DNA of 64,000 bases, taken from the IMG/VR virus record IMGVR_UViG_2786546475_000015, positions 64,001-128,000 of that record; one strand, 5' to 3'. This DNA comes from a virus (taxonomy: Duplodnaviria; Caudoviricetes). The notes under the pieces were generated by a model. The model did no database searches and was not told where the DNA came from. It worked only from the letters and a program-made list of their open reading frames with translations. A program made the position numbers and the translations under genes. Positions 4,632 through 57,879 of this stretch are shown piece after piece; position 1 is the stretch's first letter, and each line of letters begins with the position of its first letter.

Positions 4632-4880
4632 ATGAAATTAGAACAAGGTTATGGTACTATCCAAGATGATTACCGTGGAATGGGATATGTACTAAAAGAT
4701 GGTAATTTGGTATTAGAACGTGTAGAATTCGAACGCGGTACACGATTATTTGCGGTAGTAGAACGAGACGAGAAAACAAGAAAAATTAGTTCTAGTCTAC
4801 GAAATGATGATACAACACAACGTGTACGCGTAAATGGAAATGTCTTTGATAAAAATAATAAAGTGAGATTAGTTAAATAA
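4632..4880 (+). CDS. hypothetical protein (weak resemblance to MotA C-terminal domain)
   Basis: ATG at 4632 after GGGG; coupled to asiA. Confidence 0.5.
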   Translation: MKLEQGYGTIQDDYRGMGYVLKDGNLVLERVEFERGTRLFAVVERDEKTRKISSSLRNDDTTQRVRVNGNVFDKNNKVRLVK

Positions 4881-5122
4881 TGAATAAACGATTAGAATTA
4901 GTTTTAGATATTGTAGCTGTTGTCAAAATTTTAATTCGTACGGAAATGGATCATATAATTGACGAGAAGAATTTATTCATAGAATTTTTAAATGAATCTG
5001 GATTTAGGACATTAGGCGGCAAAGAATTTACAGTAGCTAACTACAATATCATGATGAAAAGATTGAAACCCTACGAAATTTCAATTATTAAGGGATATTG
5101 TGAGGGTGAATTATTGGTATAA
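4880..5122 (+). CDS. asiA: anti-sigma70 factor AsiA
   Basis: MNKRLELVLDIVAVVKILI..FIEFLNESG resembles T4 AsiA MNKNIDTVREIITVASILI..FIAFLNEIG; located near t. Confidence 0.8.
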   Translation: MNKRLELVLDIVAVVKILIRTEMDHIIDEKNLFIEFLNESGFRTLGGKEFTVANYNIMMKRLKPYEISIIKGYCEGELLV

Positions 5123-5407: not shown

Positions 5408-6055
5408 TTATAAACCGCCACTTGGTGTACCTACGGTTACTTGTAGGTTTACGTCTGTTGTTATTTCAGTTGATGAATTATTCAATTCACGCAAATGAAC
5501 CCTAACATTAATATCGTTTGGGAATCCTTGTGTACTATTAGAATTTAACTGTACACTCACATCACCGCTAGTTGGTCTATACCAAGAAGGCGCTCCATTC
5601 ACGTATACAGAATTTGGTGTGTTATTACCAAGTAGTTCGAAGTATAATTGAGTATTATTAGCCCTAGCAACCGAACCATCCCAACGACCAAGATTAATTT
5701 CTGAACTTTCAGTGCGTTGGTTAATTTGACCATTTTGCTTCATAATCAATTCTATTAACGTATAAGTGTTAGTAGAATTAGAACTTTGCATAAAGCTAGG
5801 AATGTCCGATAAATCACCATCCCATGTAACAACACTACCTTCTTCTGCGAATAATTGACCTAAATCAGTACCATCGGCGCGTTGATATCCCGTAGTACCA
5901 AAAGCCGATCCTTGTGAGACACGTTCAAAACGATTGGCTACGTCATTACCATTCGACATGACGTAACCAGTATCGGGTATCGGTGATGTTAACGTACGTA
6001 GTTCGAAAATATCATCAAAATCTCGACCATCATTTATTTTGTATTCAGTTGCCAT
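5408..6055 (-). CDS. gp38-position tail fibre-associated protein (putative adhesin/tip protein)
   Basis: Overlaps the end of the distal fibre gene; repeated TGY..xG.D N-terminal motifs; beta-rich C-terminus. Confidence 0.55.
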   Translation of the reverse strand: MATEYKINDGRDFDDIFELRTLTSPIPDTGYVMSNGNDVANRFERVSQGSAFGTTGYQRADGTDLGQLFAEEGSVVTWDGDLSDIPSFMQSSNSTNTYTLIELIMKQNGQINQRTESSEINLGRWDGSVARANNTQLYFELLGNNTPNSVYVNGAPSWYRPTSGDVSVQLNSNSTQGFPNDINVRVHLRELNNSSTEITTDVNLQVTVGTPSGGL

Positions 6056-8441
6056 TAAACATACCTTTTACTTTATCAATAATTAATCGAATTAAAGAAC
6101 GGTTTTTGAATTCTTCTAATTCTTTCTGTAACACGTCTAGTCGTCTTGATGTTTCAATCGAATGCAATGTACCAAGTTTACCGTAATCTACGGTTAGATA
6201 GCCATTCTCGCTTTCTGACACGACTTCTGGATATATTTTCTGTACGTCTTGGGCGATTACACCAACATCGTACTTACCAGCGTCATCTTTTTCTACATTT
6301 TTATCCCAAATCCATTGTTTTGAATTTAGTTTTCTGTTAGACTTAGGTGTATAATTGCTAATGTTGTGCTTTAATTTTTCGTCAGACGAAATTTTAAAAC
6401 CAGAAGCTTCTACATTAAACCTAAATTCCCATGTATTATTAGTGACATAGTTACGCGCTGTCCAATAATCATTACCTAGATACGTTCTATATAACGCTAT
6501 TTGGTTATCACCCGCGCCTGATAATTGGTTATTACCCGCATATTCTATACCACCACCATGTGATGTTTGACGACCTACGAATAAACGACCTGAATCTGGA
6601 CTACTGTTACCGTAAATACCTAAAAATGAATTCGACGTAGATTTAATACGAACATCTGTATCAGAACCGTTATCTACTGATAAATTAGTATTGAACTCAG
6701 AAGCGTTGCGACCAATAACAGCAAATCTAGTACCACCACGCCATAAATATAGTCCTTCACCAGCGGATGTAGCACTATCGTTATTGTCACGCAACCAAGT
6801 AATACCGTATTGGTTAGAACTAGCAGACCAACCCGGACCAGCCGCGCCACCAGAATAACTATCACCGATAGAGAATATATTACCACCCCATGTAGATCCA
6901 CTACCAGAGTTATATCCATAACCACCAGTGAAGCCATATCTCATAGCTAGTTGAGTGCTATTAAAGTTACGACTAATACGATTATCCGCTAAATATCCAC
7001 TTGATATATTGCTCGCATCTAATTGAGTAAGTTGGCTACCATTACCATTGAATGTACCATTGAACGTACCACCACTGAATGTTGATGATACGACACGATT
7101 AGCGGTTAAATCGCCGTCTAAATCAATACCCGCATTAGAATCTGAACTAGGCGCACCAGTATTGTTACTAAAATACCAAATACCATCACGAACAAATGTA
7201 CGTAAACCACTATTGTTAGTGTTATCGTCATAATCGTTAAGATAAATGTATTTACCAAGATACGAGTTTGTTGTACGTGTTACGCTATTATCTACGGATA
7301 ATGTTCTATTAGCGCTTAAATTACCGCCACCAGATAAACCAGAACCAGCGGTAATCGTTCTTGTTTGTCGAACATATCTACTATCGCTTTCTGCGATAGA
7401 GAAAACTTCTAAATTAGAACGTGCGCCCGCTACACTCGAAGCCCCTGTACCACCGTTCGGAATAGATAAATCAGTACCAGACCAATTACTGTTATTAATC
7501 GTATCTTGTGTCGATAAATCACCAAGATTTAAAGCGTTACGCGCACTTGATGAAGTTGTACCCAACGCTAATTGGTTGCTATCATCCCAAACTTTACGCC
7601 AACCATCCCAAGTACCACCACTTGACATGTTGAAATACATACTCTTAGAACCATTACGAGATATGGCTATTAGGGCATTAGCGTCATCATTATTACTAAA
7701 ACTTAGAACTCTAGATACTTCACTAGCGTAACTATTGGTTGTATTAGTATCGGTAGATCCAAATCCAGCATAACCGATATTAAAATAATCTGATATATAC
7801 GGCGAACCTTGGTTACCAATACCAAATGAACCATTCACTAATAACTCATTATTACCAGTACCTACATCATAAGTAGCCGCATTACCAAGATTTAAATTAG
7901 CGTAAACATCGTTTAAATCGGTAATATCGCTTAAATTATTGTCAGCATTTAAATATCTGTTATCTGATTCAGTTCTTGTGTATAATTGAGACGATGAATA
8001 TGTTTCCGATTTACTATATACATCTAAATTAGTACGCGCTTGAGATTTACTACCCAAGTCATTTAAATTTTGAGACGTATTTAGGTAATTATCGTCTGAT
8101 TCAGTCTTAGAATATACACCGATAGCATTTCTGAAACCGCTATCAGTTGTTTGCGTTAATACAGAACGTGTGAATGTACTTGTACGCGCATTAAAGAAAT
8201 CTGTTGTTCTCAACGCGGTCATATACACATTATCAGTACCCGCTTGAGCTTGAGCTTGTGTAGCTACTGAATAATTCTGTAAATTAGAAAGACCTACATC
8301 GGCTTGTGTAGGTTTATCAAATTCGGTATAAACTTTATGGTCGTTGTAAAACAACGAATCACCATCTGGAAGAAACGGTAAATTACCGCCGCTCCAGATG
8401 GTGTTGCCACCGATTGTTGTATTTAATTTTAAATCACTCAT
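6045..8441 (-). CDS. distal long tail fibre B: gp36-like N-terminus, C-terminal intramolecular chaperone (peptidase S74)
   Basis: MSDLKLNTTIGGNTIW..GNLP..KVYTEFDKP (gp36 N-term); SDEKLK..GVIAQDVQ..P..V..VDY. Confidence 0.85.
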   Translation of the reverse strand: MSDLKLNTTIGGNTIWSGGNLPFLPDGDSLFYNDHKVYTEFDKPTQADVGLSNLQNYSVATQAQAQAGTDNVYMTALRTTDFFNARTSTFTRSVLTQTTDSGFRNAIGVYSKTESDDNYLNTSQNLNDLGSKSQARTNLDVYSKSETYSSSQLYTRTESDNRYLNADNNLSDITDLNDVYANLNLGNAATYDVGTGNNELLVNGSFGIGNQGSPYISDYFNIGYAGFGSTDTNTTNSYASEVSRVLSFSNNDDANALIAISRNGSKSMYFNMSSGGTWDGWRKVWDDSNQLALGTTSSSARNALNLGDLSTQDTINNSNWSGTDLSIPNGGTGASSVAGARSNLEVFSIAESDSRYVRQTRTITAGSGLSGGGNLSANRTLSVDNSVTRTTNSYLGKYIYLNDYDDNTNNSGLRTFVRDGIWYFSNNTGAPSSDSNAGIDLDGDLTANRVVSSTFSGGTFNGTFNGNGSQLTQLDASNISSGYLADNRISRNFNSTQLAMRYGFTGGYGYNSGSGSTWGGNIFSIGDSYSGGAAGPGWSASSNQYGITWLRDNNDSATSAGEGLYLWRGGTRFAVIGRNASEFNTNLSVDNGSDTDVRIKSTSNSFLGIYGNSSPDSGRLFVGRQTSHGGGIEYAGNNQLSGAGDNQIALYRTYLGNDYWTARNYVTNNTWEFRFNVEASGFKISSDEKLKHNISNYTPKSNRKLNSKQWIWDKNVEKDDAGKYDVGVIAQDVQKIYPEVVSESENGYLTVDYGKLGTLHSIETSRRLDVLQKELEEFKNRSLIRLIIDKVKGMFNGN

Positions 8442-10897
8442 TTAAAAACCCTTTTTATTTTATTTATCAGAGTTTTAATTAAAGAACGGTTTTCCAGTTC
8501 TTCAATACGCTTAGTTAATTGTTCTACGGTTTCTTTTAGTTCTATCGAGTGATGTACACCTAATCGACCGTAATCTACTGATAAATAACCTGTTTCTTTA
8601 TCTTCGCTAACGCATGTTGGGTAATATTTCTGTACGTCTTGAGCGATTATACCAGTATCGTATTTTTCTCTAATAGACTTAGCAACGTATTCGCTATTAC
8701 TCCAATACCAAGATTTTAAACGAATACCGTCATTAACGGTTAAATCGGTTTGTTCATCTTTTAATCGAGTATCGGAACTAATTTTAAATGATGTAGCATT
8801 AATTCTATCCGTAAAGAATAAACCACCACTAGCCGCAGTAACTTTGATATAATCACTACCATCATACCAAGCTTGTCTAAAGTTACTTGTACTACCACTA
8901 CTAGTTCTACCGTATATATGTAATCTAGCTTTATCACCATCCTCGCTACGGGAATCCATTTGTTGGTGAGCGCTATCAGAACCACTAACATCAAATTCTA
9001 AAGTACCAGTAATAGCACCACCACTAGTTGAAATAGCCCCTATTTCGCTAGGTTTAGGTTTATTGCCTGTATGATACATTTCATACCAATCACCCCAATT
9101 ACCAGAATAATAACCACGCATAAACCAACGTGGAGTAGTACCGTATGTTTGGTATTGTTGGGTAACACCAGCCGATTTTTGTACTAATAAAGAACCAGCG
9201 TGACCGTATGGATAAGAAGAATTAGTATCCGCATTTTCATTTTGAAAATAAAAACCAACCGAGCTATCGGTGTTTAAGTTATTTAAATTCGTGGATTCTA
9301 AATCAGTAGCATTAAATGGAATAGAATTATTACTTAAATTATTATTAGATATAGTACCCGAAATATTACTTGCTTGTAAGTTTGTTATTCCAGAACCATT
9401 ACCGTTAAAACTATTTGCAATTAATTCACCAGAACTAGTCAAAGATAATAAAGTATCCCAAGATATAGCGCTACCAGAATTACCGCCGCTACCATATTTC
9501 ATTTCCCATATAGGATCGCCTGTTACACCTAAATCCCAAAAGAAAGCCTGTTCACTACTTACCAAATAAGTTTCATCGTTTCCATTTGTCGCGTTCCATT
9601 TTAATTGTATTCTACCATTACCATCTTGAACACTAAGTAAAGCAGACGAAGTACCACCCACTAACTCTATTGTATCGCTATTTTTACCAGTTCGGTTATC
9701 TCCACCCAAAGTGATATTATCGAAATCTACATTACTACTTGTATTCAGTGATTGATTTGCGAAATTAGTCATACTAGTTGTTATTGTAGGTAATCGGTTT
9801 GATACGATAGTACCGCTAACAATATCACTTGCATCGTGAGTATGACTTAAATCAGTGGTTAAATCACCATAATTCAAACGGTCTAAAATTAAAGTACCAT
9901 TACCACTACCCGAAACACCAACAATACGACCATCATATGCAGTAATCCACTGATTAACGTTAGTATTACTAAACGGTAAATTAGAATAAGAAACAGTACC
10001 AACTAAATTATCAACACTTAAATCAGTTAGACCAGAACCGTTACCAGAAAAAAATGATCCAGATAAAGCCAAAATTTCACCAGAACTGGCGATTTTTAAT
10101 CGCTTCTCTAATCCATGTTCACCTGATGATGTACCAGTTGGCGTAGTCCAAAAAGATATAGACATAGCACCAGTATTATTACTAGAAAATGTTTGTTCTG
10201 CTTCACCTATTACAGCCGCACCGAAACGAGGAACTAAAGGACTCAAATCATTATCAGTACTACCAAATTTAATCGCGGGTGTATATTTACTTGTTGTATT
10301 AGCGCCACCCATTAATAATTCTAGACCATAATCCGTACCATCAAAACTTTGACTACCATTTAAAGGGTTATTAATTTTTACAGAACCTTGAGTCACGTCA
10401 AAGTTCATTCCATTATTTACGGTCTGTTCTCCCGAAGTACGTAAGACGGTAGAATCAATACTAATAGTTCTATTCGCTTCTAGACTACCACCACCATTTA
10501 AACCATCACCAGCGGTAATAGTTCTTGTATCCAACGCATATTTATCGTCGGTTTCGGTTTTAGAATACACGCCTAAACGTGTACGCATAGCCGAATCTGT
10601 GTTATCCGTTAATAAAAGTCTTGAAAAGTTAGTTGTTTTTGATGTAAAATGATCACTAACACGTAACGGAGTCATATACAATGAATTACTTGTTCCTGTA
10701 ATCGCTTGGGTTTGATCCGCTACACCATAATTTAAGACATTAGAAAGACCTACATCGGCTTGTGTAGGCTTATCAAATTCGGTATAAACTTTGTGTCCTT
10801 CGTAAAACAAAGAATCACCATCTGGTAGTACGGGTAGATTTCCAGCACTCCAAATGGTGTTACCACCGATTGTAGAATTTAATTTTAAGTCACTCAT
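8438..10897 (-). CDS. distal long tail fibre A: gp36-like N-terminus, knob domain, C-terminal intramolecular chaperone
   Basis: Same N-terminus as fibre B; GSLLV..QQY..RGYYSGNWGDW knob motif; SDTRLK..GIIAQDVQ..VDY. Confidence 0.85.
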   Translation of the reverse strand: MSDLKLNSTIGGNTIWSAGNLPVLPDGDSLFYEGHKVYTEFDKPTQADVGLSNVLNYGVADQTQAITGTSNSLYMTPLRVSDHFTSKTTNFSRLLLTDNTDSAMRTRLGVYSKTETDDKYALDTRTITAGDGLNGGGSLEANRTISIDSTVLRTSGEQTVNNGMNFDVTQGSVKINNPLNGSQSFDGTDYGLELLMGGANTTSKYTPAIKFGSTDNDLSPLVPRFGAAVIGEAEQTFSSNNTGAMSISFWTTPTGTSSGEHGLEKRLKIASSGEILALSGSFFSGNGSGLTDLSVDNLVGTVSYSNLPFSNTNVNQWITAYDGRIVGVSGSGNGTLILDRLNYGDLTTDLSHTHDASDIVSGTIVSNRLPTITTSMTNFANQSLNTSSNVDFDNITLGGDNRTGKNSDTIELVGGTSSALLSVQDGNGRIQLKWNATNGNDETYLVSSEQAFFWDLGVTGDPIWEMKYGSGGNSGSAISWDTLLSLTSSGELIANSFNGNGSGITNLQASNISGTISNNNLSNNSIPFNATDLESTNLNNLNTDSSVGFYFQNENADTNSSYPYGHAGSLLVQKSAGVTQQYQTYGTTPRWFMRGYYSGNWGDWYEMYHTGNKPKPSEIGAISTSGGAITGTLEFDVSGSDSAHQQMDSRSEDGDKARLHIYGRTSSGSTSNFRQAWYDGSDYIKVTAASGGLFFTDRINATSFKISSDTRLKDEQTDLTVNDGIRLKSWYWSNSEYVAKSIREKYDTGIIAQDVQKYYPTCVSEDKETGYLSVDYGRLGVHHSIELKETVEQLTKRIEELENRSLIKTLINKIKRVFK

Positions 10898-10935
10898 GTA
10901 TATTCCAAATCGTTATAGTTATTTTAATTTTTATT

Positions 10936-10998
10936 ACTAAATCGAATTTTAACAGTTTCCTTTATATATAATTATTATAGGAATTACTGTTAAAAAAT
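10936..10998. repeat. 63-bp IR-flanked AT-rich element, copy 1 (candidate origin)
   Basis: ACTAAATCGAATTTTAACAG-31 nt-CTGTTAAAAAAT; also present at 52035-52097. Confidence 0.8.
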
Positions 10999-11046
10999 GC
11001 TTTAAAGCATAATGTTAATAGCGCCCTTGGCGCGTAAGCCGTAGGC

Positions 11047-12651
11047 TTACATTTCTGTATAATTTATTGCTTCTAATTTTCTAGTCGTAAACGACAATAA
11101 AGATACTTCTTTGATTACTGGTAATGCATATTTTACATCTGATGTAGTCGTGTTATCTTTATCAGAAACGTATATTTTTAATCCGTTTACACCACTAGTC
11201 ATTTGAAAAACTGAACTGTTATTAGGGTTGTCAATATCAAATTGTGATTCGTGATATCCTATTACCGAGTTTTTGAAATCGATTACATCGCCATTAGTCC
11301 ATGTATAAGGTAGAACCCAAAAATACATCAACTTATACGTATCACCAAAATCACTACTTGGTATGTTAACGGCTTCTGGATCTGTTACAGGAGAACCTAA
11401 ATCATCTAATAAATCGGCGGTGACACCATTATCAAACGCTTTAACACCCAATGAAACGCTACCAGAATCTTTAGTAGCTTTAACCCATATACCAATAAAA
11501 TAAGGTTTTGTATTATCTACTAAGCATTCACTAGCACTATTCAACGTTATAGAAGTATCTGTTTTGGTTACCGCTCTATCTTGATTATTGGTTAATACTT
11601 GATCGTTCCAATAAACATCCTCGATAACATCTTGTTCTAACTCAACACCACTATGAGCGTTGGCTTCTAAATCAGAATCTTCATACCAATCGGTATCAAA
11701 AATATCATGTCCATGTACGTTTTGTGATACTTTACTACTGTATATACCTTTTGAACTTATAATTGTATCTTCTGGTATCGGACTAAACCCATTGTGTAAA
11801 CCAATTTGGATACTATCAATTTTTGCAGTACCCGAACCTGTATGAACCGTTCTAACAACAATACGATTAGTACCTGTTGGTGTGTCGTAAATGATGTTAT
11901 AAGATTGCCACAAATCAATAGAATCACATGTAAATGACATAACATCCAATGATGTAGTATTATCAAAAAACTCTATCTCTAATGATACGATTGTGTTAAT
12001 ATCATTCTTCATAAACGCACTAGCGGTGATGTAACTATCGTTGTTTATCGCTTTATCAACTAATACCGTGTTAGATGAATATTCGGTGTCATCTTGATAT
12101 ATAGGCTTACCAAATCCGTTATCACCTAATTCGTTTATATTCTTGAACGTAGTTGATAAAGTAGCCGTAGGACTTGTTGAAGTCGTACCACTAACAGATT
12201 CATATACAAAACCGAATGTACCATGACAAATAGCTGAATAACATGTCTTAGGTTTACGATTTAAAAAGTTAGTACCTAACCATTTCCATGAACCTAGACG
12301 CTCAAATTCCGCATCAATTGATAGTGTACTACGAATACCTTTTGTACCGCCTGTCGCTAATAAAGCGATATGATCAGCGCCTAAATTTTGTAAACGACTA
12401 ATCAATGCGCTTCTAGCTGTTGTGTTATCGTAAATGTCGTATACACCGTCTGATAAAACATTCATAGACGAATCAAATACGACCATAGCTAATCCGTTTA
12501 AACTTGGATTACCATGTTCAGTACCGTTAATAAGCACTGAACGGCTACCATTCGAACCGTTCGTACCTACTACTTTTACAGAGTTGTCTATTTTGTTTTC
12601 ATCTAGTTTTACGGCTTTTATACCTGTTCTACTAAATTCTAAAAAACTCAT
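11047..12651 (-). CDS. 35: long tail fibre hinge connector
   Basis: Between 34 and the gp36-like gene; ATG at 12651 overlaps gp34 stop (TAATG). Confidence 0.75.
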   Translation of the reverse strand: MSFLEFSRTGIKAVKLDENKIDNSVKVVGTNGSNGSRSVLINGTEHGNPSLNGLAMVVFDSSMNVLSDGVYDIYDNTTARSALISRLQNLGADHIALLATGGTKGIRSTLSIDAEFERLGSWKWLGTNFLNRKPKTCYSAICHGTFGFVYESVSGTTSTSPTATLSTTFKNINELGDNGFGKPIYQDDTEYSSNTVLVDKAINNDSYITASAFMKNDINTIVSLEIEFFDNTTSLDVMSFTCDSIDLWQSYNIIYDTPTGTNRIVVRTVHTGSGTAKIDSIQIGLHNGFSPIPEDTIISSKGIYSSKVSQNVHGHDIFDTDWYEDSDLEANAHSGVELEQDVIEDVYWNDQVLTNNQDRAVTKTDTSITLNSASECLVDNTKPYFIGIWVKATKDSGSVSLGVKAFDNGVTADLLDDLGSPVTDPEAVNIPSSDFGDTYKLMYFWVLPYTWTNGDVIDFKNSVIGYHESQFDIDNPNNSSVFQMTSGVNGLKIYVSDKDNTTTSDVKYALPVIKEVSLLSFTTRKLEAINYTEM

Positions 12652-15527
12652 TATGGATTCTCTACCCAAGTAAATTTAACTGTTTCGTTTACTGGATCGG
12701 GTTCAATTCTCAAATTACCAATTTGAATATAGTTATTAACAGAGATATCATCGAATGTAGTACCAGAGATACCCGCTTTTTCATCGATTTGTTCTTGTAA
12801 TAACCTAACCACATTAGCGGTAGCCGCTTGTGTTTGGCTTGTACTGTCTACTGCGTTATTCAGTTGAACAATACCTTGTTGAGAAGTTGTAGCCGATGGT
12901 ACACTTTTCAGTTTGTTAAAATTAATTTTAGCGTCTGATTCAATAACTGTTGTACTATTAACAGCATAACCAGCGCTTGAACGTAGTAAACCACTTGTAT
13001 TAGACGAGAATAGTTCGGTATAATCCGTACCATTACTTGAATAATCAAATACAAAACGTCCATCAAAACCAATTCTAGAACGCGTGTAATGTGCGTTATT
13101 GCGATTTAAACCATAACTTGGTGTATTATCAGCAGTAGATTTAACTGACATTAAACCAGTTGTGTTTTGTACTAATAAATCACCGTTTATAGTATCGCCT
13201 TGGTTTGATACGTACGTATTATCTAGTGTTTTACCGTTTTGTGTTATTACACCACTAACTAATGTATCAGTAACGTTTAAATTACCATCTACGTCTACAC
13301 CAGTTGCGGTCGTCGCTAACCTTTGAGTACCATTGTATCGTAAGTTAACAGCACCGTTTGTGGTTACGTCGAAATTAGATACAAATGAACCTGTATTATC
13401 ATCACCAATACGGAATGTTTGACTAACGCCTGTTAGACGTACATCACCATCGGCTGAACGAATTAATGAAAATGTTTCACTATCATCGCCGTTGTTGAAT
13501 ATTAGTCCTTTGTTTTCTGTAATAGTTAACGAACCATTTAATCGGTCGTCTACATCACTACGTAAGAAACTAGTACTATCGATACCATCTAACAATTCGC
13601 TATCTACGGCTTTAGCCCCACTTGGTAAGAAGTAAGTTAAAGCGTGATTTAATGTACGCGGTGTTACCACAAATCCGCTATGATCGTAATCATCTACGGC
13701 TTGAGAACTACCGTTAACGTTATCACCGATGAACGCACCACCTTTCGTACTTGTTTGAACAGTACCACGATAAGATTGCGAACTAATCGCGTTTGTACTT
13801 GTTCTAGTCCAACGTAATAACTTAGCAGGGGTAATCGCGTTTGTGTCGTTAGTACCCGCGTCTGTTTCTGTATTATCAGCAATTTCTAATACACCCGCTA
13901 ATGTTGTTGTAGCGCGTCTTGCATCCAACTTCTTAGGTGTGATAATATGTGTATCGTTGGTATTACTATTAGCTTCTGTTTGTGTAGCTACTTCTGCTAG
14001 ACCGCGAATTGTTTCCGTAGCTTGTCTACTATTTAGCAATTCTGGTGTTACAATCGCGTCATTAGCGAAAGAACCTGATGTAGCAACTTGTAATTCCGAT
14101 GATGTAGCTAAACGTGTTAAACCACGACGAGTAGTTGTAGACGTTCTATTAGCTAGTGTTAACGGGGTTACCGCACTATCATCAATCGGACTATCTTCAT
14201 AGTTTTTATTAACTTCTGTTTGTGTAGCTAATGGGATGATACCCGCACGATTACGATAATTTTCATCAACTTTATCTATACGATAACTGATAATATCGAT
14301 AGTCCAGCAATCGTTATCCTCACAATACGTCAAACGCAATGTAGGAGAACTAAAGTCACTGACTAGAGTAATACTGGTACTTTGCGTTAATTCGCCTTCT
14401 GTTGGTACGTCAGAGAACTTATTCTTGATGTATTTGTTGATATCACCAAGGATTGTGTGTGGTGTATTCGGATCACAATTAATAGTAATCGATGCACCCA
14501 CATAACTATAAGTATTAGTCAATTCGATGAAGTCGCCATTGTTAGCGTCTTTTGGTAACGTAATGTTAATAGCACTTGTTGGTGATGTATGACGAACCGC
14601 GATATGCTCTAATGGTTTAGCGACATAATCAGACGTAATGATATTAGTACGTGTACGGATATCCGCATCAAATACACGCCAACGGTTTTGCGTTTTATCA
14701 AATACAACCGCACCCCAACCAATAGTATTAAACGTTTTTTCTGTTGTCGTACTATTATCGATTGTATGTGTACTATCTGGATGTACTTTTAAAACAGTAC
14801 CGTTAATCGAAGCTAATCCATCGATATCGTAAGTTTCAAACAAATCACCATCTTCTGCATAACGTGGTAACGTCAATACGAATTGACCAGTTGATGAACG
14901 ACGATAAAGTTTTTCGCTTGCTGTAATCTGGATGTTACCCGCATTGGCTACGCGTGAGTTACCACGATCCTGAATAGAAACTACCCATTCAGCACCATTA
15001 AAGATAAAGATATACAATGCTTTTTTCTTAGTAATAATAAACTCATTACCAAAACCATTGATCGTAATAGAACTAGTTACACTTGCTTTAAGTGTAGCGA
15101 TATCACCACCTTCATCTTGGACAGCAATAATTTCACCGTCTAATGGTGATGTAGGTAATTCAATAGTAATAGGGTTACTTTGGTTTTTGATCAAGTAACG
15201 ATTACCAGCGGTAGCCGCGATTGTTCCTTGTGTTTCTCGGATAAATGGCGTGTCTGTACGAACCGCAGACCATAAATCTGGATCAAACGCACCCGCAGGA
15301 GCGCTGATATCTGATTTAGCAGACCACAATCTGTTTTCTCGGATAATGACGAACCCGCTTTTATACGATCTAGTAGGATCGTAATCCTGAACTGTGTTAT
15401 TTTCTGTATAGTATGATACGTTAACCGCATCTTTGTTTTCGCCGTTTCGTGGATCGCCTAGATTTACTAGAGGATTGTCAGATCCATCGAAACCCGAAAG
15501 TGATTTAAAAGGTTTTTTAATAGCCAT
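12651..15527 (-). CDS. 34: long tail fibre proximal subunit
   Basis: ENNTVQDYDPTRSY..IIRENRLW..W.AVRTD N-terminus; ATQTE..VTP repeats. Confidence 0.92.
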   Translation of the reverse strand: MAIKKPFKSLSGFDGSDNPLVNLGDPRNGENKDAVNVSYYTENNTVQDYDPTRSYKSGFVIIRENRLWSAKSDISAPAGAFDPDLWSAVRTDTPFIRETQGTIAATAGNRYLIKNQSNPITIELPTSPLDGEIIAVQDEGGDIATLKASVTSSITINGFGNEFIITKKKALYIFIFNGAEWVVSIQDRGNSRVANAGNIQITASEKLYRRSSTGQFVLTLPRYAEDGDLFETYDIDGLASINGTVLKVHPDSTHTIDNSTTTEKTFNTIGWGAVVFDKTQNRWRVFDADIRTRTNIITSDYVAKPLEHIAVRHTSPTSAINITLPKDANNGDFIELTNTYSYVGASITINCDPNTPHTILGDINKYIKNKFSDVPTEGELTQSTSITLVSDFSSPTLRLTYCEDNDCWTIDIISYRIDKVDENYRNRAGIIPLATQTEVNKNYEDSPIDDSAVTPLTLANRTSTTTRRGLTRLATSSELQVATSGSFANDAIVTPELLNSRQATETIRGLAEVATQTEANSNTNDTHIITPKKLDARRATTTLAGVLEIADNTETDAGTNDTNAITPAKLLRWTRTSTNAISSQSYRGTVQTSTKGGAFIGDNVNGSSQAVDDYDHSGFVVTPRTLNHALTYFLPSGAKAVDSELLDGIDSTSFLRSDVDDRLNGSLTITENKGLIFNNGDDSETFSLIRSADGDVRLTGVSQTFRIGDDNTGSFVSNFDVTTNGAVNLRYNGTQRLATTATGVDVDGNLNVTDTLVSGVITQNGKTLDNTYVSNQGDTINGDLLVQNTTGLMSVKSTADNTPSYGLNRNNAHYTRSRIGFDGRFVFDYSSNGTDYTELFSSNTSGLLRSSAGYAVNSTTVIESDAKINFNKLKSVPSATTSQQGIVQLNNAVDSTSQTQAATANVVRLLQEQIDEKAGISGTTFDDISVNNYIQIGNLRIEPDPVNETVKFTWVENP

Positions 15528-21874: not shown

Positions 21875-23014
21875 ATGACAGTATTTAATCAAGCTAACGT
21901 TGATCATTTGAATCAACCTATGTTTTTTGGTGAAGAATTGGGTATAGCCCGATTCGACACCTACAAGCATTCACAATTTGAGAAGTTAACAGAAAAACAA
22001 CTTTCATTCTTTTGGCGTCCAGAAGAAATTGATGTTTCTAGAGACGCAATCGATTATAGTAAGTTATCAGAAGCGGAACAACACGTGTTCACCGCTAATT
22101 TAAAGTATCAGACGTTATTAGATAGTGTACAAGGTCGCGCACCGAGTGTAGCGTTTTTACCTATCGTTAGTGATACTGCGTTAGAGAACTGGATCGAAAC
22201 TTGGTCTTTTAGTGAAACTATTCATTCACGCTCTTATACTCATATTATGCGAAATGTTTACAACGATCCATCAAAAGAGTTTGATAATATCGTTAGTAAT
22301 CAAGAAATTATGAAACGTGCTAGTGTAGTGACTAAACATTATGATGAATTAATCGCGGTAGCTAGGAAATGGAATGATTTAGTCGAGACGACTAATTGGG
22401 ATAAAGACGAAACGTTGACGGATATAGAAGAATTGCTACGTAGAAAGTGTAAAGAAAAACTTTACCTTACTATGATGGCTGTTAATATCTTAGAAGCTAT
22501 TAGATTCTATGTAAGTTTCGCGTGTTCGTTTAATTTCGCAGAAAATCAATTGATGGAAGGTAACGCTAAAATCATCAAGCTAATCGCACGTGACGAAGCG
22601 CTACATCTAAAGGGTACTCAATATATCTTGCAACAATGGCATCGTGGTAAAGACGATCCAGATATGCACGATATAGCAGAAGAACTTAGACCAGAAGCGA
22701 CACAATTATTCTTAGATGCTGTTAAACAAGAAAAATCGTGGGCTGAATATTTGTTTAGTTTTGGGTCTATTCGCGGATTGAGTTACAAAAAATTATGTGA
22801 ATATATCGAGTATGTCGCAGATCATCGTATGCGTTCGGTTGGTTTAGATAGTCCGTTCCAACGTAAAAAAGAAAATCCTTTACCTTGGATGCAGAAATGG
22901 TTGAATAGTGATGCGGTACAAATCGCACCACAAGAAGCCGAAATATCTAGTTATTTAATCAATCAAGTCGATCAAAACGTTGATGTGACCGATTTATCTA
23001 AATACGAATATTAA
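21875..23014 (+). CDS. nrdB: ribonucleotide reductase beta subunit (no intron)
   Basis: FFWRPEE, SETIHSRSY, EAIRFYVSF, RDEALH. Confidence 0.96.
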   Translation: MTVFNQANVDHLNQPMFFGEELGIARFDTYKHSQFEKLTEKQLSFFWRPEEIDVSRDAIDYSKLSEAEQHVFTANLKYQTLLDSVQGRAPSVAFLPIVSDTALENWIETWSFSETIHSRSYTHIMRNVYNDPSKEFDNIVSNQEIMKRASVVTKHYDELIAVARKWNDLVETTNWDKDETLTDIEELLRRKCKEKLYLTMMAVNILEAIRFYVSFACSFNFAENQLMEGNAKIIKLIARDEALHLKGTQYILQQWHRGKDDPDMHDIAEELRPEATQLFLDAVKQEKSWAEYLFSFGSIRGLSYKKLCEYIEYVADHRMRSVGLDSPFQRKKENPLPWMQKWLNSDAVQIAPQEAEISSYLINQVDQNVDVTDLSKYEY

Positions 23015-23021
23015 TTTTCGG

Positions 23022-23081
23022 AAGCCCTTGCGTAAGCAGGGGCTTTTTGTTATCATGGGTTTGTTGAAACGATTTAAGGAG
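23022..23081 (+). promoter_or_regulatory. terminator hairpin + sigma70 promoter + RBS cassette (PeSL-like), copy 1
   Basis: AAGCCCTTGC-GTAA-GCAGGGGCTTTTT; -35 TTGCGT, 17 nt, -10 TATCAT; AAGGAG. Confidence 0.8.
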
Positions 23082-23293: not shown

Positions 23294-23508
23294 TGGGAAA
23301 TATCAAATACCGTATGTATTTAAAAGACGACAATGGGTATATCGAAGGTGATGATATCGGTGATATGATTAAGAAAGCTAATGAAATGGGTTATCGTGCG
23401 TCAAATTTCGATTTCGAGATCATTATAACCGTTCATAAACCAATTGATTATGTCGATATTAAAACGACAATTATGCCCGAAAATATTTCTTTTGAAACAA
23501 TTTCTTAA
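23293..23508 (+). CDS. hypothetical protein
   Basis: TAATG coupling. Confidence 0.6.
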   Translation: MGNIKYRMYLKDDNGYIEGDDIGDMIKKANEMGYRASNFDFEIIITVHKPIDYVDIKTTIMPENISFETIS

Positions 23509-23517
23509 TTAATTACC

Positions 23518-23586
23518 AAAAGCCCTTGCATTGCAGGGGCTTTTTTGTTACCATGTATTTGTCGGTTGGGAAAACAAACAAAGGAG
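23518..23586 (+). promoter_or_regulatory. PeSL-like cassette, copy 2
   Basis: AAAAGCCCTTGC-ATT-GCAGGGGCTTTTTT; TTGCAT-17-TACCAT; AAGGAG. Confidence 0.8.
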
Positions 23587-34279: not shown

Positions 34280-34654
34280 ATGAAAATTATTGATAATGGT
34301 TTAAGTTACAGACTTACTTACACAGAAAATGAATGGCTTTTGACTCTAATCAACACCAAAGTAGGTTCTGATTATTTAATTAAAAGGGATTTCTTCTTTT
34401 ATGGTGAAGATGACGACGAGTATGTGAGTGATGTTGATGTAAAAGCTAATGTATTTTCGTTGTCTAGAAAGGTATTAGCCGTAATTAACAAGAAAATGTC
34501 TACACAAAAACCACAATACTTTTTCTTCAAAGCATCTACGGAGCGTAAAAAGGCGATATACAAAAGAATGGCATTAAGATTAGAAAAAATGTTTAACGGT
34601 TTGTATAAGCTAGACATTAACGATTCGTACTTCTACTTTTTTAGGAATATTTAA
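34280..34654 (+). CDS. hypothetical protein
   Basis: AGGA RBS; lies between synthetase and hydrolase. Confidence 0.6.
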   Translation: MKIIDNGLSYRLTYTENEWLLTLINTKVGSDYLIKRDFFFYGEDDDEYVSDVDVKANVFSLSRKVLAVINKKMSTQKPQYFFFKASTERKKAIYKRMALRLEKMFNGLYKLDINDSYFYFFRNI

Positions 34655-34656
34655 TA

Positions 34657-34726
34657 AAAGCCCTTGCATTGCAGGGGCTTTTCTGTATAATAGGGGTTGT
34701 TGAGTTGAGAGATAACCTTTAAGGAG
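34657..34726 (+). promoter_or_regulatory. PeSL-like cassette, copy 3
   Basis: AAAAGCCCTTGCATTGCAGGGGCTTTT; TTGCAT-16-TATAAT; AAGGAG. Confidence 0.8.
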
Positions 34727-40639: not shown

Positions 40640-40924
40640 ATGAAAACATTTAATCAATTAATTCAAGAACGTGACATGATGGGATGGTTTTCTATCCCAA
40701 AAATGGTTAGAGATAAATTAGAGTCTTTAGGGTATAGTCAAAAGAGCGTCCAACGTAATGTTAAGTACACTATCGAGGATGATTGGGGTGACATGTATGT
40801 TAAAGTCGAAAATAAAAACTCTATCCCAAGTAAAGAAATCGAACAATACGCGAATACAAATAGTAACGTTATGCTAGATAAAGATTATCCAGTAAATGGT
40901 TTTACATTAATTATTCGAATTTAG
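40640..40924 (+). CDS. putative internal head protein
   Basis: MKTFNQLIQE, compare T4 IPIII MKTYQEFIAE; late promoter. Confidence 0.7.
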   Translation: MKTFNQLIQERDMMGWFSIPKMVRDKLESLGYSQKSVQRNVKYTIEDDWGDMYVKVENKNSIPSKEIEQYANTNSNVMLDKDYPVNGFTLIIRI

Positions 40925-40926
40925 TT

Positions 40927-40989
40927 AAAAAGCCCTTGCATCGTCGAGGGCTTTTTGCTATCCTGTATCTGTAACGTCGATTAAAGGAG
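40927..40989 (+). promoter_or_regulatory. PeSL-like cassette, copy 4
   Basis: AAAAAGCCCTTG..CGAGGGCTTTTT; TTGCAT-17-TATCCT; AAGGAG. Confidence 0.75.
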
Positions 40990-43421: not shown

Positions 43422-43925
43422 ATGGCAGGTAAAAAATCATTACGCGGTAAAGGCACATACGCCGCTTATAAAATGGAAAATCGTGTAGCGAAAAACAAAC
43501 GCCGAAAGTTAGAGCGTCATTTAAAGCGTCATCCTAACGATGGTCAAGCGGAATCCGCTGTCGCTACATCTGGTACGTACAAAGGTCGTTCAGCGCCTAA
43601 ACGTATCAATAGCCGTAAAGGTATTCAATATGATGTAGTTATTACTAAAGGTAAAAACGGTAAAACCAATACATCGTTAGTCAATCGCGGCGTAAATCGC
43701 TCTAATGGTCGTCTAAGTTCTGGCGGTCGGTTTGAGCAACAAATGATGAAGATGAAAAAATCAGTATCTAATGTGTATCAATTCTTGCAAAAGAATAAAA
43801 AACAATTAGTAGGTGATGAAGTAGTCGATTCAGTATTAGCGCCTGTACCTACCGTGAGTAGTGGCAAACCAAAACGCGTACGAAAAGGTAAGCGTAAAGC
43901 ACGAAAGCAACAAAAGCGTAGTTAA
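43422..43925 (+). CDS. very basic hypothetical protein (30.9 position)
   Basis: K/R-rich, 167 aa. Confidence 0.65.
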   Translation: MAGKKSLRGKGTYAAYKMENRVAKNKRRKLERHLKRHPNDGQAESAVATSGTYKGRSAPKRINSRKGIQYDVVITKGKNGKTNTSLVNRGVNRSNGRLSSGGRFEQQMMKMKKSVSNVYQFLQKNKKQLVGDEVVDSVLAPVPTVSSGKPKRVRKGKRKARKQQKRS

Positions 43926-43931
43926 TTAATC

Positions 43932-43984
43932 AAAGCCCTTGCGTAAGCAGGGGCTTTTTGCTATCCTGTACACAAATAAAGGAG
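43932..43984 (+). promoter_or_regulatory. PeSL-like cassette, copy 5
   Basis: AAAGCCCTTGCGTAAGCAGGGGCTTTTT; TTGCGT-17-TATCCT; AAAGGAG. Confidence 0.8.
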
Positions 43985-44573: not shown

Positions 44574-44903
44574 ATGCGTAACATCAAATCAGAAATGCTT
44601 GATATAGAATTAGCCAAATTAGAAGATGCCAACGACAACAACGAATTGTTACGTGTTATCGCTAGTGAACTAGGTTTTGACGACTTAGAAGAAAAGATAG
44701 CTCATATGAAAGCGGTTCATCGCTCTATTGGTAATATGCCGCATCATTTATACATGGAACGTGAACAATATCGAAAAGAAATTAAAGAACGTGGTGTTAA
44801 TCACCCAAATTGGGAGTCAGTAAAAAGTATGTGTAAAAATATGGAAAGTGATAAAAAAGTAGCAAAGAATTTACGCGAATGGGATAAAAATAAGCGTAAA
44901 TAA
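44574..44903 (+). CDS. hypothetical protein
   Basis: AAGGAG RBS. Confidence 0.6.
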   Translation: MRNIKSEMLDIELAKLEDANDNNELLRVIASELGFDDLEEKIAHMKAVHRSIGNMPHHLYMEREQYRKEIKERGVNHPNWESVKSMCKNMESDKKVAKNLREWDKNKRK

Positions 44904-44907
44904 TTAT

Positions 44908-44945
44908 AAAGCCCTTGCATTGTCGAGGGCTTTCGTGTATAAATA
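44908..44945 (+). promoter_or_regulatory. PeSL-like cassette, copy 6, whose -10 box is a late promoter
   Basis: TTGCAT-17-TATAAATA. Confidence 0.75.
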
Positions 44946-48554: not shown

Positions 48555-48560
48555 TTAAAC

Positions 48561-48621
48561 AAAGCCCTTGCGTAAGCAGGGGCTTTTTGTTATCATGGGT
48601 TTGTTGAATTGATTTAAGGAG
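48561..48621 (+). promoter_or_regulatory. PeSL-like cassette, copy 7 (47 nt identical to copy 1)
   Basis: AAGCCCTTGCGTAAGCAGGGGCTTTTTGTTATCATGGGTTTGTTGAA. Confidence 0.85.
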
Positions 48622-51907: not shown

Positions 51908-52034
51908 TCCATTAAACGTAATATTTGGGGTATACAAGGCTATATTATAGTTAACTTAGGCGTTCATACTAATTAATTATTTTATAGCCTTAGAATTGAT
52001 TACATAGCTTATAACTTTTTATTATATATTAATA

Positions 52035-52097
52035 ACTAAATCGAATTTTAACAGTTATTACTATAATAATTATATATAAGGTAAACTGTTAAAAAAT
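52035..52097. repeat. 63-bp IR-flanked AT-rich element, copy 2 (core inverted relative to copy 1)
   Basis: Same 20-nt and 12-nt flanks as 10936-10998. Confidence 0.8.
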
Positions 52098-52158
52098 CCG
52101 CTACGCGGTAAACGCCATAGGCGTTTAATTTTATGAACTTATATGGTATTATTAAGTA

Positions 52159-52566
52159 ATGAAAAGAGAAGAATTATTAAATGAACTAGAGCAAGATTTA
52201 AAAGTCGATACTAGACAGTTACTAAACGAAGCCGCCGACAATTCAAAGTTGTATGCTAAATGGTTACGTTATTATAGTGATGTTAAGCGGGAATGGTTAA
52301 AGGCTAATATGGCATTGTCTAGAGTCAAAAAAGAGAAACTTGACTGGTTGAACGGACGTAGTGATGAAGTATGCGAATACGCATATGAACGTAGTGAAAT
52401 AAAAACTGTATTAGAAGCTGATATTGAGTATCAAAGATCGTTTTCTAGTGTAGAGTTAGCTGGAATCAGATTAGATATTTGTAAAAGCGCCTTAGACGCT
52501 ATCAAGAGTCGTGGGTTCAGTATTAAAAATGCAATTGATATGAGAATGTTGGAGAGTGGAAAGTGA
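52159..52566 (+). CDS. uvsY: recombination mediator UvsY
   Basis: LYAKWL.YY, YERSEIK.V..AD, ALDAIKSRGFSIKN.ID.R..E.G. Confidence 0.93.
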   Translation: MKREELLNELEQDLKVDTRQLLNEAADNSKLYAKWLRYYSDVKREWLKANMALSRVKKEKLDWLNGRSDEVCEYAYERSEIKTVLEADIEYQRSFSSVELAGIRLDICKSALDAIKSRGFSIKNAIDMRMLESGK

Positions 52567-57451: not shown

Positions 57452-57879
57452 ATAGGCTACGAGGAAATAAAAAAGAATTTATAGAATGTAAGGTGTCTAA
57501 ATTCTGGAAACGTATTTTGTATGGTGTGTATACAGTTAAATTGTCAGGAAATGAAAGGGAACGACTTACTATCAGTAGTATTATACATGATAAATCATCG
57601 TACGATTCTGTTATGTGTTTTTTAAAAACCCATACCAACGTTTATTTAATTTGTAAAGATAAACCTCATACAAACGACGAGTATTTTGATAGAATATTCG
57701 ATCTCGACGAATTTAAAATTAATTTCACAAAAAATAAGTATTACAATATACACTCACCGAGTGAAAGAAAAGATAGTGGTCGATATCAAAACGATATGTT
57801 TATTTTCTATAAAGTAGACAAACCAAATAATAGAGTATTAGACTCTTGTGGCATAAACAGACTATTACACATACAATAA
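57442..57879 (+). CDS. hypothetical protein
   Basis: 145 aa ORF before terminator. Confidence 0.5.
   Translation: MFLDRLRGNKKEFIECKVSKFWKRILYGVYTVKLSGNERERLTISSIIHDKSSYDSVMCFLKTHTNVYLICKDKPHTNDEYFDRIFDLDEFKINFTKNKYYNIHSPSERKDSGRYQNDMFIFYKVDKPNNRVLDSCGINRLLHIQ

What the first reader, a model, noticed from the sequence alone, without database searches (positions are those of the whole stretch)
10936..11046. Non-coding element duplicated 41 kb apart with an inverted core (copy 1)
Copies at 10936-10998 and 52035-52097 have identical directly oriented flanks (ACTAAATCGAATTTTAACAG and CTGTTAAAAAAT) containing a 9-bp inverted repeat (TTTTAACAG/CTGTTAAAA). The 31-bp cores are reverse complements (27/31; TTATATATAATTATTATAG versus CTATAATAATTATATATAA exact). 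Both are followed by short hairpins (GCGCC-CTT-GGCGC and AAGCC-GTA-GGCTT; CCGC-TAC-GCGG and AAACGCC-ATA-GGCGTTT). Established: T4 has ori(34) in the fibre region and ori(uvsY) at uvsY. Inference: these are cruciform-type origins, or a flippable element whose TATAAT points opposite ways. Copy 1 lies just upstream of the two alternative fibre genes.
Basis: partly seen in the sequence, partly recalled or inferred. Interest (0 to 1): 0.8.

Follow-up and report, generated by a model that had tools for sequence, protein, structure and literature searches.

The report
Repeated promoter-hairpin cassette, one core flipped
A marine T4-like phage carries four copies of a 49-bp near-palindromic promoter-like element with paired hairpins, placed before its uvsY, tail-fibre and baseplate-hub genes much as T4's replication origins are placed; the uvsY copy has its 31-bp centre turned round, which looks like a fixed evolutionary inversion, not a working switch.

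Summary
Both copies sit at the stated coordinates: the cores match 27/31 inverted against 14/31 direct, and the flanks match directly (17/20). The pattern occurs 0 times in shuffles.

The other two lie in tandem 27 kb beyond the window, before a gp26/51-like hub gene.

Each element is part of a larger cassette: Y arm, TTTTAACAG, 31-nt core, CTGTTAAAA, AT-rich leader, two abutting GC hairpins, T-tract. The best sigma-70 match (TTAACA-17/18-TATTAT) points from the Y arm towards the hairpins. That direction is antisense to the fibre and hub genes and, judged by the flanks, sense to uvsY.

A relative (proteins 52-66% identical) has the cassette at the same three loci, with the sigma-70 face aimed at uvsY. 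The flipped uvsY core here is therefore derived. A 99%-identical Tara scaffold has the same orientation, and the phage encodes no invertase.

The three loci are the three least stable 150-bp stretches of the genome, and their places and directions parallel T4 oriF, oriG and oriE.

Best reading: a PeSL-like promoter-terminator unit making a short non-coding RNA, possibly priming replication. The function is not proven. Two other first-stage notes of this scan (not followed up) had flagged the tandem pair and the uvsY copy.

The parts
10927..10946 (+). Copy A, Y arm (ATTTTTATTACTAAATCGAA; reads TTCGATTTAGTAAT.. towards the fibre gene)
   Evidence: Matches the left flank of copy B 17/20 in direct orientation, and the right flank of D 18/20 as reverse complement. 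The block CTGTTAAAATTCGATTTnGTTATATA is also kept before the hub gene of two relatives whose hub protein is only about 50% identical.
10947..10995 (+). Copy A, 49-bp element: TTTTAACAG, 31-nt core, CTGTTAAAA. The sigma-70-like face is on the + strand (-35 TTAACA 10949-10954, 18-nt spacer, -10 TATTAT 10973-10978). A TATAAT faces the fibre gene on the - strand.
   Evidence: Folds as a 10 bp + bulge + 5 bp hairpin.
10996..11020 (+). Copy A, AT-rich leader (X), including the palindrome TGCTTTAAAGCA at 10998-11009
   Evidence: Its start, AATG(C/T)TTTAAA, is shared with the matching flanks of D and C.
11021..11060 (+). Copy A, two abutting GC hairpins (GCGCC-CTT-GGCGC at 11021-11033; GTAAGCC-GTA-GGCTTAC at 11034-11050) and a T-rich tail. 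The second stem contains the stop codon of the gp35-like gene (11047-12669, - strand).
   Evidence: Terminator-like on the + strand; folds. The orthologous hairpin in relative L045 differs by two compensatory base-pair changes.
8438..10897 (-). First of two tandem gp36/37-like distal fibre genes, downstream of copy A on the - strand
   Evidence: PHROG long-tail-fibre distal subunit hits; ORF list.
52026..52045 (+). Copy B, Y arm (ATATTAATAACTAAATCGAA), on the side away from uvsY
   Evidence: 14/14 identical, as reverse complement, to the Y arm of D next to the 9-mer. No - strand gene follows it.
52046..52094 (+). Copy B, 49-bp element with the 31-nt core (52055-52085) inverted relative to its flanks. 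The sigma-70-like face is now on the - strand (-35 at 52092-52087, -10 at 52068-52063). TATAAT faces uvsY.
   Evidence: Identical in Tara scaffold L031. Opposite orientation at uvsY in relative L032.
52098..52137 (+). Copy B, two abutting GC hairpins (CCGC-TAC-GCGG at 52098-52108; TAAACGCC-ATA-GGCGTTTA at 52109-52127) and a T-rich tail, 21 nt before the uvsY ATG
   Evidence: Terminator-like on the + strand; folds.
52159..52566 (+). uvsY
   Evidence: PHROG 231 UvsY-like, E 1.6e-35; PF11056 in its homologues.

Best explanation
The element is the core of a conserved promoter-terminator cassette of about 110-190 bp. There are four copies at three loci of this T4-like phage, and a diverged relative carries it at the same three loci.

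Read in the direction set by its flanks, the cassette is: Y arm (upstream region), 9-mer holding a -35-like TTAACA, core holding a -10-like TATTAT at a 17-18 nt spacing, second 9-mer at about +1, a very AT-rich leader of 12-65 nt, then two abutting GC hairpins with 3-nt loops and a T-tract.

I infer that host sigma-70 RNA polymerase fires from it early and makes a non-coding RNA of about 70-105 nt at copies A and D. That RNA is antisense to the late fibre and hub operons. At uvsY the flank-defined (ancestral) direction is sense, towards uvsY.

These are the three most easily melted stretches of the genome. Their places and transcript directions mirror T4 oriG, oriE and oriF. So the most likely use of the RNA is as an R-loop primer at promoter-plus-unwinding-element origins.

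Shown: the anatomy, copy number, conservation and duplex stability. Inferred: transcription and origin activity.

The inverted core of the uvsY copy is a derived, fixed small inversion or gene-conversion patch bounded by the 9-bp inverted repeats. It is not a working switch. It now turns the sigma-70 face away from uvsY.

My confidence: about 0.55 that this is a sigma-70 promoter-terminator unit, about 0.3 that it is an origin, about 0.85 that the flip is a fixed inversion. The single figure given (0.4) is for the statement as a whole.
For: There are exactly four copies, each with a sharply defined orientation: 46-57 bits one way and 5-13 bits the other.

All four carry TTAACA-17/18-TATTAT (10/12) on the same face. 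The relative keeps a TAnnnT (TACTAT) at that place.

In A and D this face is followed by an AT leader and a hairpin pair whose T-tract lies on that strand. The D terminator is flagged on the - strand only, and no ORF of at least 60 aa lies on the - strand within 2 kb.

The Y arm is kept at copy B, where no gene follows it. It therefore belongs to the cassette and is not a late-gene leader.

Relatives:
- L045 (fibre), L036 and L037 (hub) and L032 (uvsY) carry the 9-mers.
- They also share the Y arm, a homologous leader (GATTAGnATnAAAnATTTTAATCGAATAAA) and the same hairpin (ACCGCCTTTGGCGGTAT-ATTTT).
- This holds although their proteins are only 49-66% identical to ours.
- One hairpin differs from its orthologue by two compensatory pair changes.

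In the relative the sigma-70 face points at uvsY and continues through an X-type flank and the hairpins.

Duplex stability: among 150-bp windows, ranks 1, 2 and 3 of the whole genome are C/D, B and A.

The T4 record annotates oriF with 'primer RNA is same as transcript for gene uvsY', oriG with 'opposite direction of adjacent gene 34', and oriE with 'complement of gene 5 transcript'. T4 oriF and oriG each consist of a promoter plus an AT-rich DUE (PMC3016281).

For the fixed flip: L031 is 99% identical and has the same orientation, and there is no recombinase.
Against: A 10/12 sigma-70 match is not significant on its own in such AT-rich DNA: shuffles give 2-3 per region. It is also much weaker than this phage's perfect early promoters, TTGACA-16-TGnTATAAT.

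The core is (TA)-rich and holds -10-like hexamers on both strands. A perfect TATAAT faces the adjacent gene in all four copies, so the other face could be the working one.

Copy B now has the sigma-70 face pointing away from both its hairpins and uvsY, yet it is kept in two strains.

Copy C has only a weak Y arm and no hairpins downstream of its sigma-70 face.

A terminator right behind the promoter is not a feature of T4 oriF or oriG, and T4 uses MotA-dependent middle promoters. Here AsiA is present, but no MotA domain was detected.

Low duplex stability partly follows from these simply being the largest AT-rich intergenic gaps.

No transcript or replication data exist. Only two relatives could be found, and their contigs break inside the core.
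Confidence: 0.4

Rival explanations
1. The face that carries TATAAT is the working one. On this reading the element is a promoter for the gene it points at (fibre, hub, uvsY), possibly helped by an unknown activator bound to the 9-mer 7 nt upstream. CTGTTAAAA plus the Y arm would then be a conserved 5' leader.
For: In all four copies the TATAAT face points at the next gene, including copy B, where the flanks are reversed. TATAAT is perfect here and TATAGT in the relative. The 30-nt block next to the late genes is very conserved. AsiA is present, so promoters independent of a -35 could matter.
Against: There is no -35 at 17 nt and no TG extension. Late genes of this phage use TATAAATA (13 well-placed sites), and the core has none. 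In the relative this face points away from uvsY. The Y arm at copy B precedes no gene. Three independent loci all pointing one way has a 1-in-4 chance.
Confidence: 0.2
2. The cassette is transcribed as proposed, but the short RNAs are regulatory. They would be early antisense or trans-acting sRNAs (for example against the 3' end of the upstream late mRNA), or the promoter would act through transcriptional interference. They would not be replication primers.
For: The predicted RNAs have an AU-rich single-stranded stretch, two terminal hairpins and a U-tail. About 30 nt of leader is conserved between copy D and the relative's fibre copy. The transcripts would be antisense to late operons.
Against: The leaders of A, B and D share only about 25 nt. 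The RNAs run away from the start of the adjacent late gene, so they cannot mask its ribosome-binding site. No Rfam family matches.
Confidence: 0.15
3. The element acts purely at the DNA level: a quasi-palindromic binding site for a phage or host protein, or a cruciform. It would serve as an operator, or as a preferred recombination point that shuffles modules as PeSLs do, with no need for transcription.
For: Both 9-mers are strictly conserved in sequence between diverged phages, rather than co-varying. One compensatory pair in copy B keeps the inner stem (TTCC/GGAA becomes TTAC/GTAA). The cassettes sit at both ends of a synteny change: in T4 and in L035 gene 26 lies next to uvsY, whereas here it lies behind gp3. 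Leader and hairpin sequences are shared between different loci, a sign of gene conversion.
Against: The half-sites are 40 bp apart centre to centre, which is unusual for an operator. The centre is only 12-14/31 self-complementary, which is poor for a cruciform. No candidate binding protein was identified.
Confidence: 0.12
4. The core is a programmed invertible switch, like fimS or the Hin/Gin segments, that flips during infection and changes which way the promoter fires.
For: 9-bp inverted repeats bound the inverted segment. The orientation differs between the flanks here, and between this phage and a relative at the same locus.
Against: There is no serine or tyrosine recombinase in a complete genome. 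The orientation is identical in an independent Tara assembly of a 99%-identical strain. The segment is only 31 bp. Copies A, C and D are consistent with their flanks.
Confidence: 0.03

Closest known systems
PeSLs (promoter-early stem-loop cassettes) of T4-type phages (Arbiol et al. 2010, PMC2839356; Comeau et al. 2014, PMC4122927)
   Same: A small conserved composite of a sigma-70-like promoter and stable stem-loops. It is repeated in the genome and flanked by AT-rich DNA, its sequence is shared between loci as if by recombination, and it lies at points of module rearrangement.
   Different: PeSLs are numerous, lie in hyperplastic early regions and drive the ORF just downstream. Here there are four copies, at the borders of late modules and at uvsY. 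The sigma-70 face points away from the adjacent late gene into a terminator. The promoter lies inside a 49-bp quasi-palindrome bounded by 9-bp inverted repeats, and one core is inverted. Classical PeSL-like units also occur in this window (family D1).
T4 replication origins oriF (uvsY), oriG (gene 34) and oriE (gene 5)
   Same: Location (uvsY start, tail-fibre cluster, baseplate-hub region) and direction of the putative primer RNA: sense to uvsY, antisense to the late genes. A promoter followed by unusually AT-rich, easily melted DNA (PMC3016281).
   Different: The T4 origins share little sequence, lie inside coding sequence (34, 5, uvsY start) and use MotA-dependent middle promoters. Here one conserved intergenic cassette is used. 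It has a -35-type promoter, no detectable MotA, a tandem hairpin terminator after the AT stretch, and the promoter of the uvsY copy is turned round. No activity has been shown.
Small hairpin-loop inversions flanked by short inverted repeats in plastid non-coding DNA (reviewed in PMC12371153)
   Same: A short spacer between short inverted repeats is found in opposite orientations in related genomes while the flanks stay collinear. This is a mutational event, not a regulated one.
   Different: Here the inverted spacer carries promoter-like hexamers, so its orientation may matter. The genome also holds donor copies in both orientations, so gene conversion is an alternative route.
Site-specific invertible promoter switches (E. 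coli fimS with 9-bp inverted repeats; Hin/Gin/Cin segments)
   Same: 9-bp inverted repeats bound a promoter-bearing segment that is found in two orientations.
   Different: No recombinase gene, a 31-bp rather than a 314-bp or larger segment, and one orientation in two independent samples.

Membership tests
PeSL promoter-terminator cassettes | Sigma-70-like -35 and -10 boxes at 16-18 nt | tested here: met
   TTAACA-18-TATTAT (17 nt in copy C), 10/12, in all four copies. Not significant as a single match.
PeSL promoter-terminator cassettes | Adjacent stable stem-loop acting as terminator or attenuator | tested here: met
   Two abutting GC hairpins with a T-tract at A, B and C/D. Compensatory changes in the orthologous hairpin. 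Termination itself was not assayed.
PeSL promoter-terminator cassettes | Many copies in hyperplastic early regions, each ending in the SD and ATG of the ORF it drives | tested here: not met
   Four copies only, in late modules and at uvsY. The sigma-70 face points away from the adjacent late gene.
PeSL promoter-terminator cassettes | Serves as a crossover point for module shuffling | tested here: inconclusive
   Cassettes lie at both sides of the relocation of the gp26-like hub gene, compared with T4 and L035. Leader and hairpin sequences are shared across loci and phages. No crossover was observed.
T4-type R-loop origin (oriF/oriG) | MotA-dependent middle promoter (MotA box at -30 plus a -10) | tested here: not met
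   No MotA_activ or MotCF domain in the genome, and that search has weak power. AsiA is present. The promoter is of the -35 type.
T4-type R-loop origin (oriF/oriG) | AT-rich DNA unwinding element downstream of the promoter | tested here: met
   The three loci are ranks 1-3 for least stable 150-bp windows of the 166-kb genome. The D leader is 65 nt at about 15% GC by my hand count from the sequence.
T4-type R-loop origin (oriF/oriG) | Position and primer direction as in T4 (sense to uvsY, antisense to 34 and 5) | tested here: met
   Searches compared. At uvsY this holds for the flanks and for the relative, but not for the present core.
T4-type R-loop origin (oriF/oriG) | Persistent R-loop, and autonomous replication of a plasmid carrying it in infected cells | not testable with these tools
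   Needs the phage, its host and wet-lab assays.
Site-specific invertible switch | Dedicated recombinase | tested here: not met
   PF00239 and PF00589 are absent from a complete genome, while the controls ring.
Site-specific invertible switch | Both orientations present in one population | tested here: inconclusive
   Only consensus assemblies are available, and two independent ones agree. Reads were not available.
MITE-like mobile element | Terminal inverted repeats plus a target-site duplication | tested here: not met
   The 9-bp terminal repeats are present, but the bases on either side are not duplicated in any copy.

The most novel reading that the evidence does not exclude
A clade of marine T4-like phages marks its replication origins (the counterparts of T4 oriF, oriG and oriE) with one conserved cassette kept uniform by gene conversion: a quasi-palindromic sigma-70 promoter, an unwinding leader and a tandem hairpin stop. 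Because the promoter lies between 9-bp inverted repeats, it can be turned round in evolution, which reverses the direction of the primer RNA at one origin.
Probability: 0.25. Interest if true: 0.75.

Novelty: new variant of a known kind. Interest (0 to 1): 0.55.

Why it matters
T4's origins share almost no sequence, and the review of the field still lists as open what defines them and whether oriE works like oriF and oriG (PMC3016281).

This phage lineage has one recognisable cassette at the three corresponding places. That would give a sequence handle for finding and dissecting origins, or early antisense promoters, in uncultured T4-like phages. It would also offer a natural experiment, because the promoter of one copy is reversed.

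Even if the cassette proves to be only a regulatory or recombination unit, it extends the PeSL idea from hyperplastic early regions to the borders of conserved late modules. It also shows concerted evolution of non-coding cassettes across loci.

Tried and rejected
- **Relatives by DNA.** Megablast and blastn of both loci against INPHARED found nothing. Pattern scans of IMG/VR and JGI metagenome contigs for the 9-mer pair, the core, or the 9-mer plus Y arm gave only chance hits, in coding or unrelated DNA. The search for related loci with UvsY found nothing close. With a UvsY alignment it found only phages at 49% identity or less.
- **Relatives by protein.** The usable relatives came from protein look-ups in Logan and ENA assemblies. 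The more distant L033, L034 and L035 have no cassette before uvsY. The gp3 search gave nothing useful.
- **Rfam.** No family matched.
- **Late promoter.** The core has no TATAAATA, although the phage uses that motif elsewhere.
- **MotA-type middle promoter.** No MotA domain was found.
- **LexA, DnaA and IHF boxes.** Checked by eye against consensus sequences recalled from memory; none fits.
- **MITE.** No target-site duplication.
- **GC skew.** It only follows the coding strand and says nothing about origins.
- **Small ORFs.** Behind the sigma-70 face there are only frames of 2-10 codons without an SD (read).
- **Assembly artefact for the flipped core.** Rejected, because an independent Tara assembly agrees.

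Full report
**Identity of the genome.** The window is bases 64001-128000 of a single 165,977-bp virus record with direct terminal repeats, 34.6% G+C. It is a T4-like myovirus:
- gp34-, gp35- and two gp36/37-like fibre genes lie on the minus strand at 5.4-15.5 kb.
- UvsY, a YqeY-like protein and UvsW lie at 52-55 kb.
- AsiA is present, but no MotA domain was found.
- No DNA-level relative exists in INPHARED.
- The nearest named phages are about 50% identical in UvsY and UvsW.

**The observation.** Both copies are exactly as described.
- The cores match 27/31 inverted and 14/31 direct. The 20 nt left of the first 9-mer match 17/20 directly, which happened once in 200,000 random pairs.
- The 9-mer pair with a 20-45 nt gap never occurs in shuffles.
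C and D are 152 bp apart and lie between a gp3-like gene and a gp26/51-like baseplate-hub gene.
- A profile of the four copies finds nothing else. It scores each copy 46-57 bits in one orientation and 5-13 bits in the other.

**Anatomy.** Aligned by core, the 49 bp are nearly identical in all four copies. Each is part of a longer unit.
- In A (read on the minus strand) and in D the order is: two abutting GC hairpins with 3-nt loops, an AT-rich spacer X (..TTTAAAnCATT), TTTTAACAG, core, CTGTTAAAA, arm Y (TTCGATTTAGTnAT..), and about 45 nt later the start codon.
- B has the same flanks in the same order on the minus strand. Its hairpins lie next to uvsY and its Y arm faces away from uvsY. Its core is turned round.
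- C has X and only a weak Y.
Equally, all four cores point the same way relative to the neighbouring genes.
- The whole element folds as a 10 bp + bulge + 4-5 bp hairpin. B keeps the inner stem through a double change, TTCC/GGAA to TTAC/GTAA.

**Promoter-like features.**
- The best sigma-70 match is TTAACA-18-TATTAT (17 nt in C), 10/12. It lies on the face that runs from Y towards X and the hairpins.
- In A that face is on the plus strand, antisense to the fibre genes. About 35 nt later come the hairpins and ATTTCTGTAT.
- In D it is on the minus strand, antisense to gp3 and the hub gene. After a 65-nt leader of about 15% G+C (my hand count) come CCCGC-TTT-GCGGG, ATACCGCC-TTT-GGCGGTAT and ATTTTTTAAT.
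- The D terminator was flagged on the minus strand only, and no ORF of at least 60 aa lies on that strand between L026 4884 and 8584.
- The predicted RNAs of 70-105 nt fold into the two terminal hairpins with a U-rich tail.
- The other face carries a perfect TATAAT 7 nt after the 9-mer, but no -35.
- Such matches are common in AT-rich DNA (shuffle means 2-3), so the argument rests on architecture and conservation, not on the hexamers.
- The phage's own late promoters are TATAAATA (13 well-placed sites), and the core has none.

**Relatives.** Protein look-ups gave four informative contigs.
- L031, a Tara Oceans scaffold (UvsY 98% identical), matches the window at 293 of 296 bases upstream of uvsY. 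It has copy B with the same flipped core.
- In a phage from SRR29340318 (UvsY 66%, hub 52%, gp35-like 58% identical) the Logan contigs break inside the repeat, but the ends can be read.
  - After the gp35-like gene come GTGAGTC-TAC-GACTCAC and GCGCC-TAC-GGCGC. The first differs from ours by two compensatory pair changes.
  - Then comes a 47-nt spacer homologous to our D spacer, then TTTTAACAG-TTTAACTATAGTATATAT.
  - Before the hub gene the contig reads ..TGAAA-CTGTTAAAA-TTCGATTTTGTTATATA. A second phage from SRR25399972 reads the same way.
  - Before uvsY it reads ATATATACTATAGTTAAA-CTGTTAAAA, then an AT-rich leader, GGGCGC-TCC-GCGCC, ACCGCC-TTT-GGCGGT, ATATTTT and uvsY.
- The uvsY end is the exact reverse complement of the fibre end. 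So in the relative the uvsY copy has the sigma-70 face (-10 TACTAT) aimed at uvsY. This is what the flanks of our copy B imply for its ancestor.
- Three conclusions follow. The cassette is old and is kept at the same three loci. Copies within a genome are more alike than orthologous copies, which points to concerted evolution. The inversion of the B core is derived in our lineage.
- No serine or tyrosine recombinase is encoded.

**Comparison with T4.**
- The T4 record annotates oriF at the start of uvsY ('primer RNA is same as transcript for gene uvsY'), oriG inside gene 34 ('opposite direction of adjacent gene 34') and oriE inside gene 5 ('complement of gene 5 transcript').
- oriF and oriG each consist of a promoter plus an AT-rich unwinding element. 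oriE, oriF and oriG lie near late-gene regions (PMC3016281).
- Here the cassette lies at uvsY, between the gp35-like and gp36/37-like genes, and before a hub gene. The sigma-70 face has the same sense or antisense relation, by flanks at uvsY.
- A nearest-neighbour stability scan puts C/D, B and A at ranks 1, 2 and 3 of all 150-bp windows. The ranks are 1, 2, 3 and 6 at 100 bp, and 1, 4, 5, 6 and 7 at 60 bp.
- This fits a promoter-plus-DUE origin. It is partly a consequence of these being large AT-rich gaps, and T4 origins have no terminator behind the promoter.
- GC skew is uninformative.

**Relation to PeSLs.**
- T4-type phages carry conserved sigma-70 promoter plus stem-loop cassettes that act as recombination linkers (PMC2839356, PMC4122927).
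- The present cassette has the same ingredients. It also sits at both ends of a synteny change: gene 26 lies next to 25 and uvsY in T4 and in L035, but behind gp3 here.
- It differs in copy number, in its location in late modules, in its orientation away from the adjacent gene, and in its palindromic build.
- Ordinary PeSL-like units occur elsewhere in the window (family D1).

**How the flip arose (inference).** The two 9-mers are reverse complements, so the ends of the element look the same in both orientations. Two routes would leave the flanks in place and turn the core:
- an intramolecular exchange or template switch between the 9-mers;
- a gene-conversion patch copied from C or D, which lie in the opposite flank orientation and share the GGTAAA end with B.

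Small inversions of this kind are well known in plastid spacers.

**Verdict.** The most likely reading is a conserved promoter-terminator unit that makes a short non-coding early RNA (about 0.55). Origin priming is the favoured use (about 0.3), and the flip is most likely a fixed inversion (about 0.85). A gene-facing promoter or leader, a regulatory sRNA, and a pure DNA-binding or recombination site remain open. A programmed switch is unlikely.

Noticed in passing
window 23009-23064, 23507-23562, 34645-34700, 40917-40972, 43920-43975, 44888-44933, 48549-48604: A family of terminator-promoter units (AAAGCCCTTGC..GCAGGGGCTTTTT followed by a TG-extended -10 such as TGTTATCAT, then an SD). They resemble the PeSLs described for RB49, phi1 and KVP40-type phages. 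A -35-like TTGCAT or TTGCGT sits in the hairpin loop.
   Followed up: partly
window 4880-5122 (+): An AsiA homologue (PF09010, 53.8 bits), but neither MotA Pfam domain was found in the genome. The phage may shut off -35-dependent promoters without a recognisable MotA-type activator.
   Followed up: partly
window 57875-57903 and 59203-59231: The same 29-nt hairpin (AAAGGCTACC-n-GGTAGCCTTT), 97% complementary, lies on both sides of the 413-aa minus-strand gene at 57906-59147. Each copy is terminator-like. The gene at the corresponding place in a relative carries PF07068 (Gp23).
   Followed up: no
window 51908-52025: The 127 nt between the upstream ORF and copy B are non-coding. On the minus strand, about 60 nt after the Y arm, they hold a 3-codon frame, ATGAACGCCTAA. 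This could be a relic of a gene start that once followed the cassette on that strand.
   Followed up: no
window 6045-8441 and 8438-10897 (-): Two tandem distal-fibre genes of about 800 aa share 82% DNA identity over their first 197 nt (family D2) and diverge afterwards. Both start ATGAGTGAC, as does the hub gene behind copy D.
   Followed up: no
window 62945-63154: Two (perhaps three) tandem 105-nt repeats, 83% identical, inside the minus-strand ORF at 62455-63204.
   Followed up: no
genome 131329 and 79554 (window 67329, outside; window 15554): TTTTAACAC and TTTTAACAA, preceded by ATATAACTAA-like or CACA sequence, lie upstream of a 660-aa late gene and of the gp34-like gene. They may be weak echoes of the 9-mer and Y arm, or chance in AT-rich DNA.
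   Followed up: no
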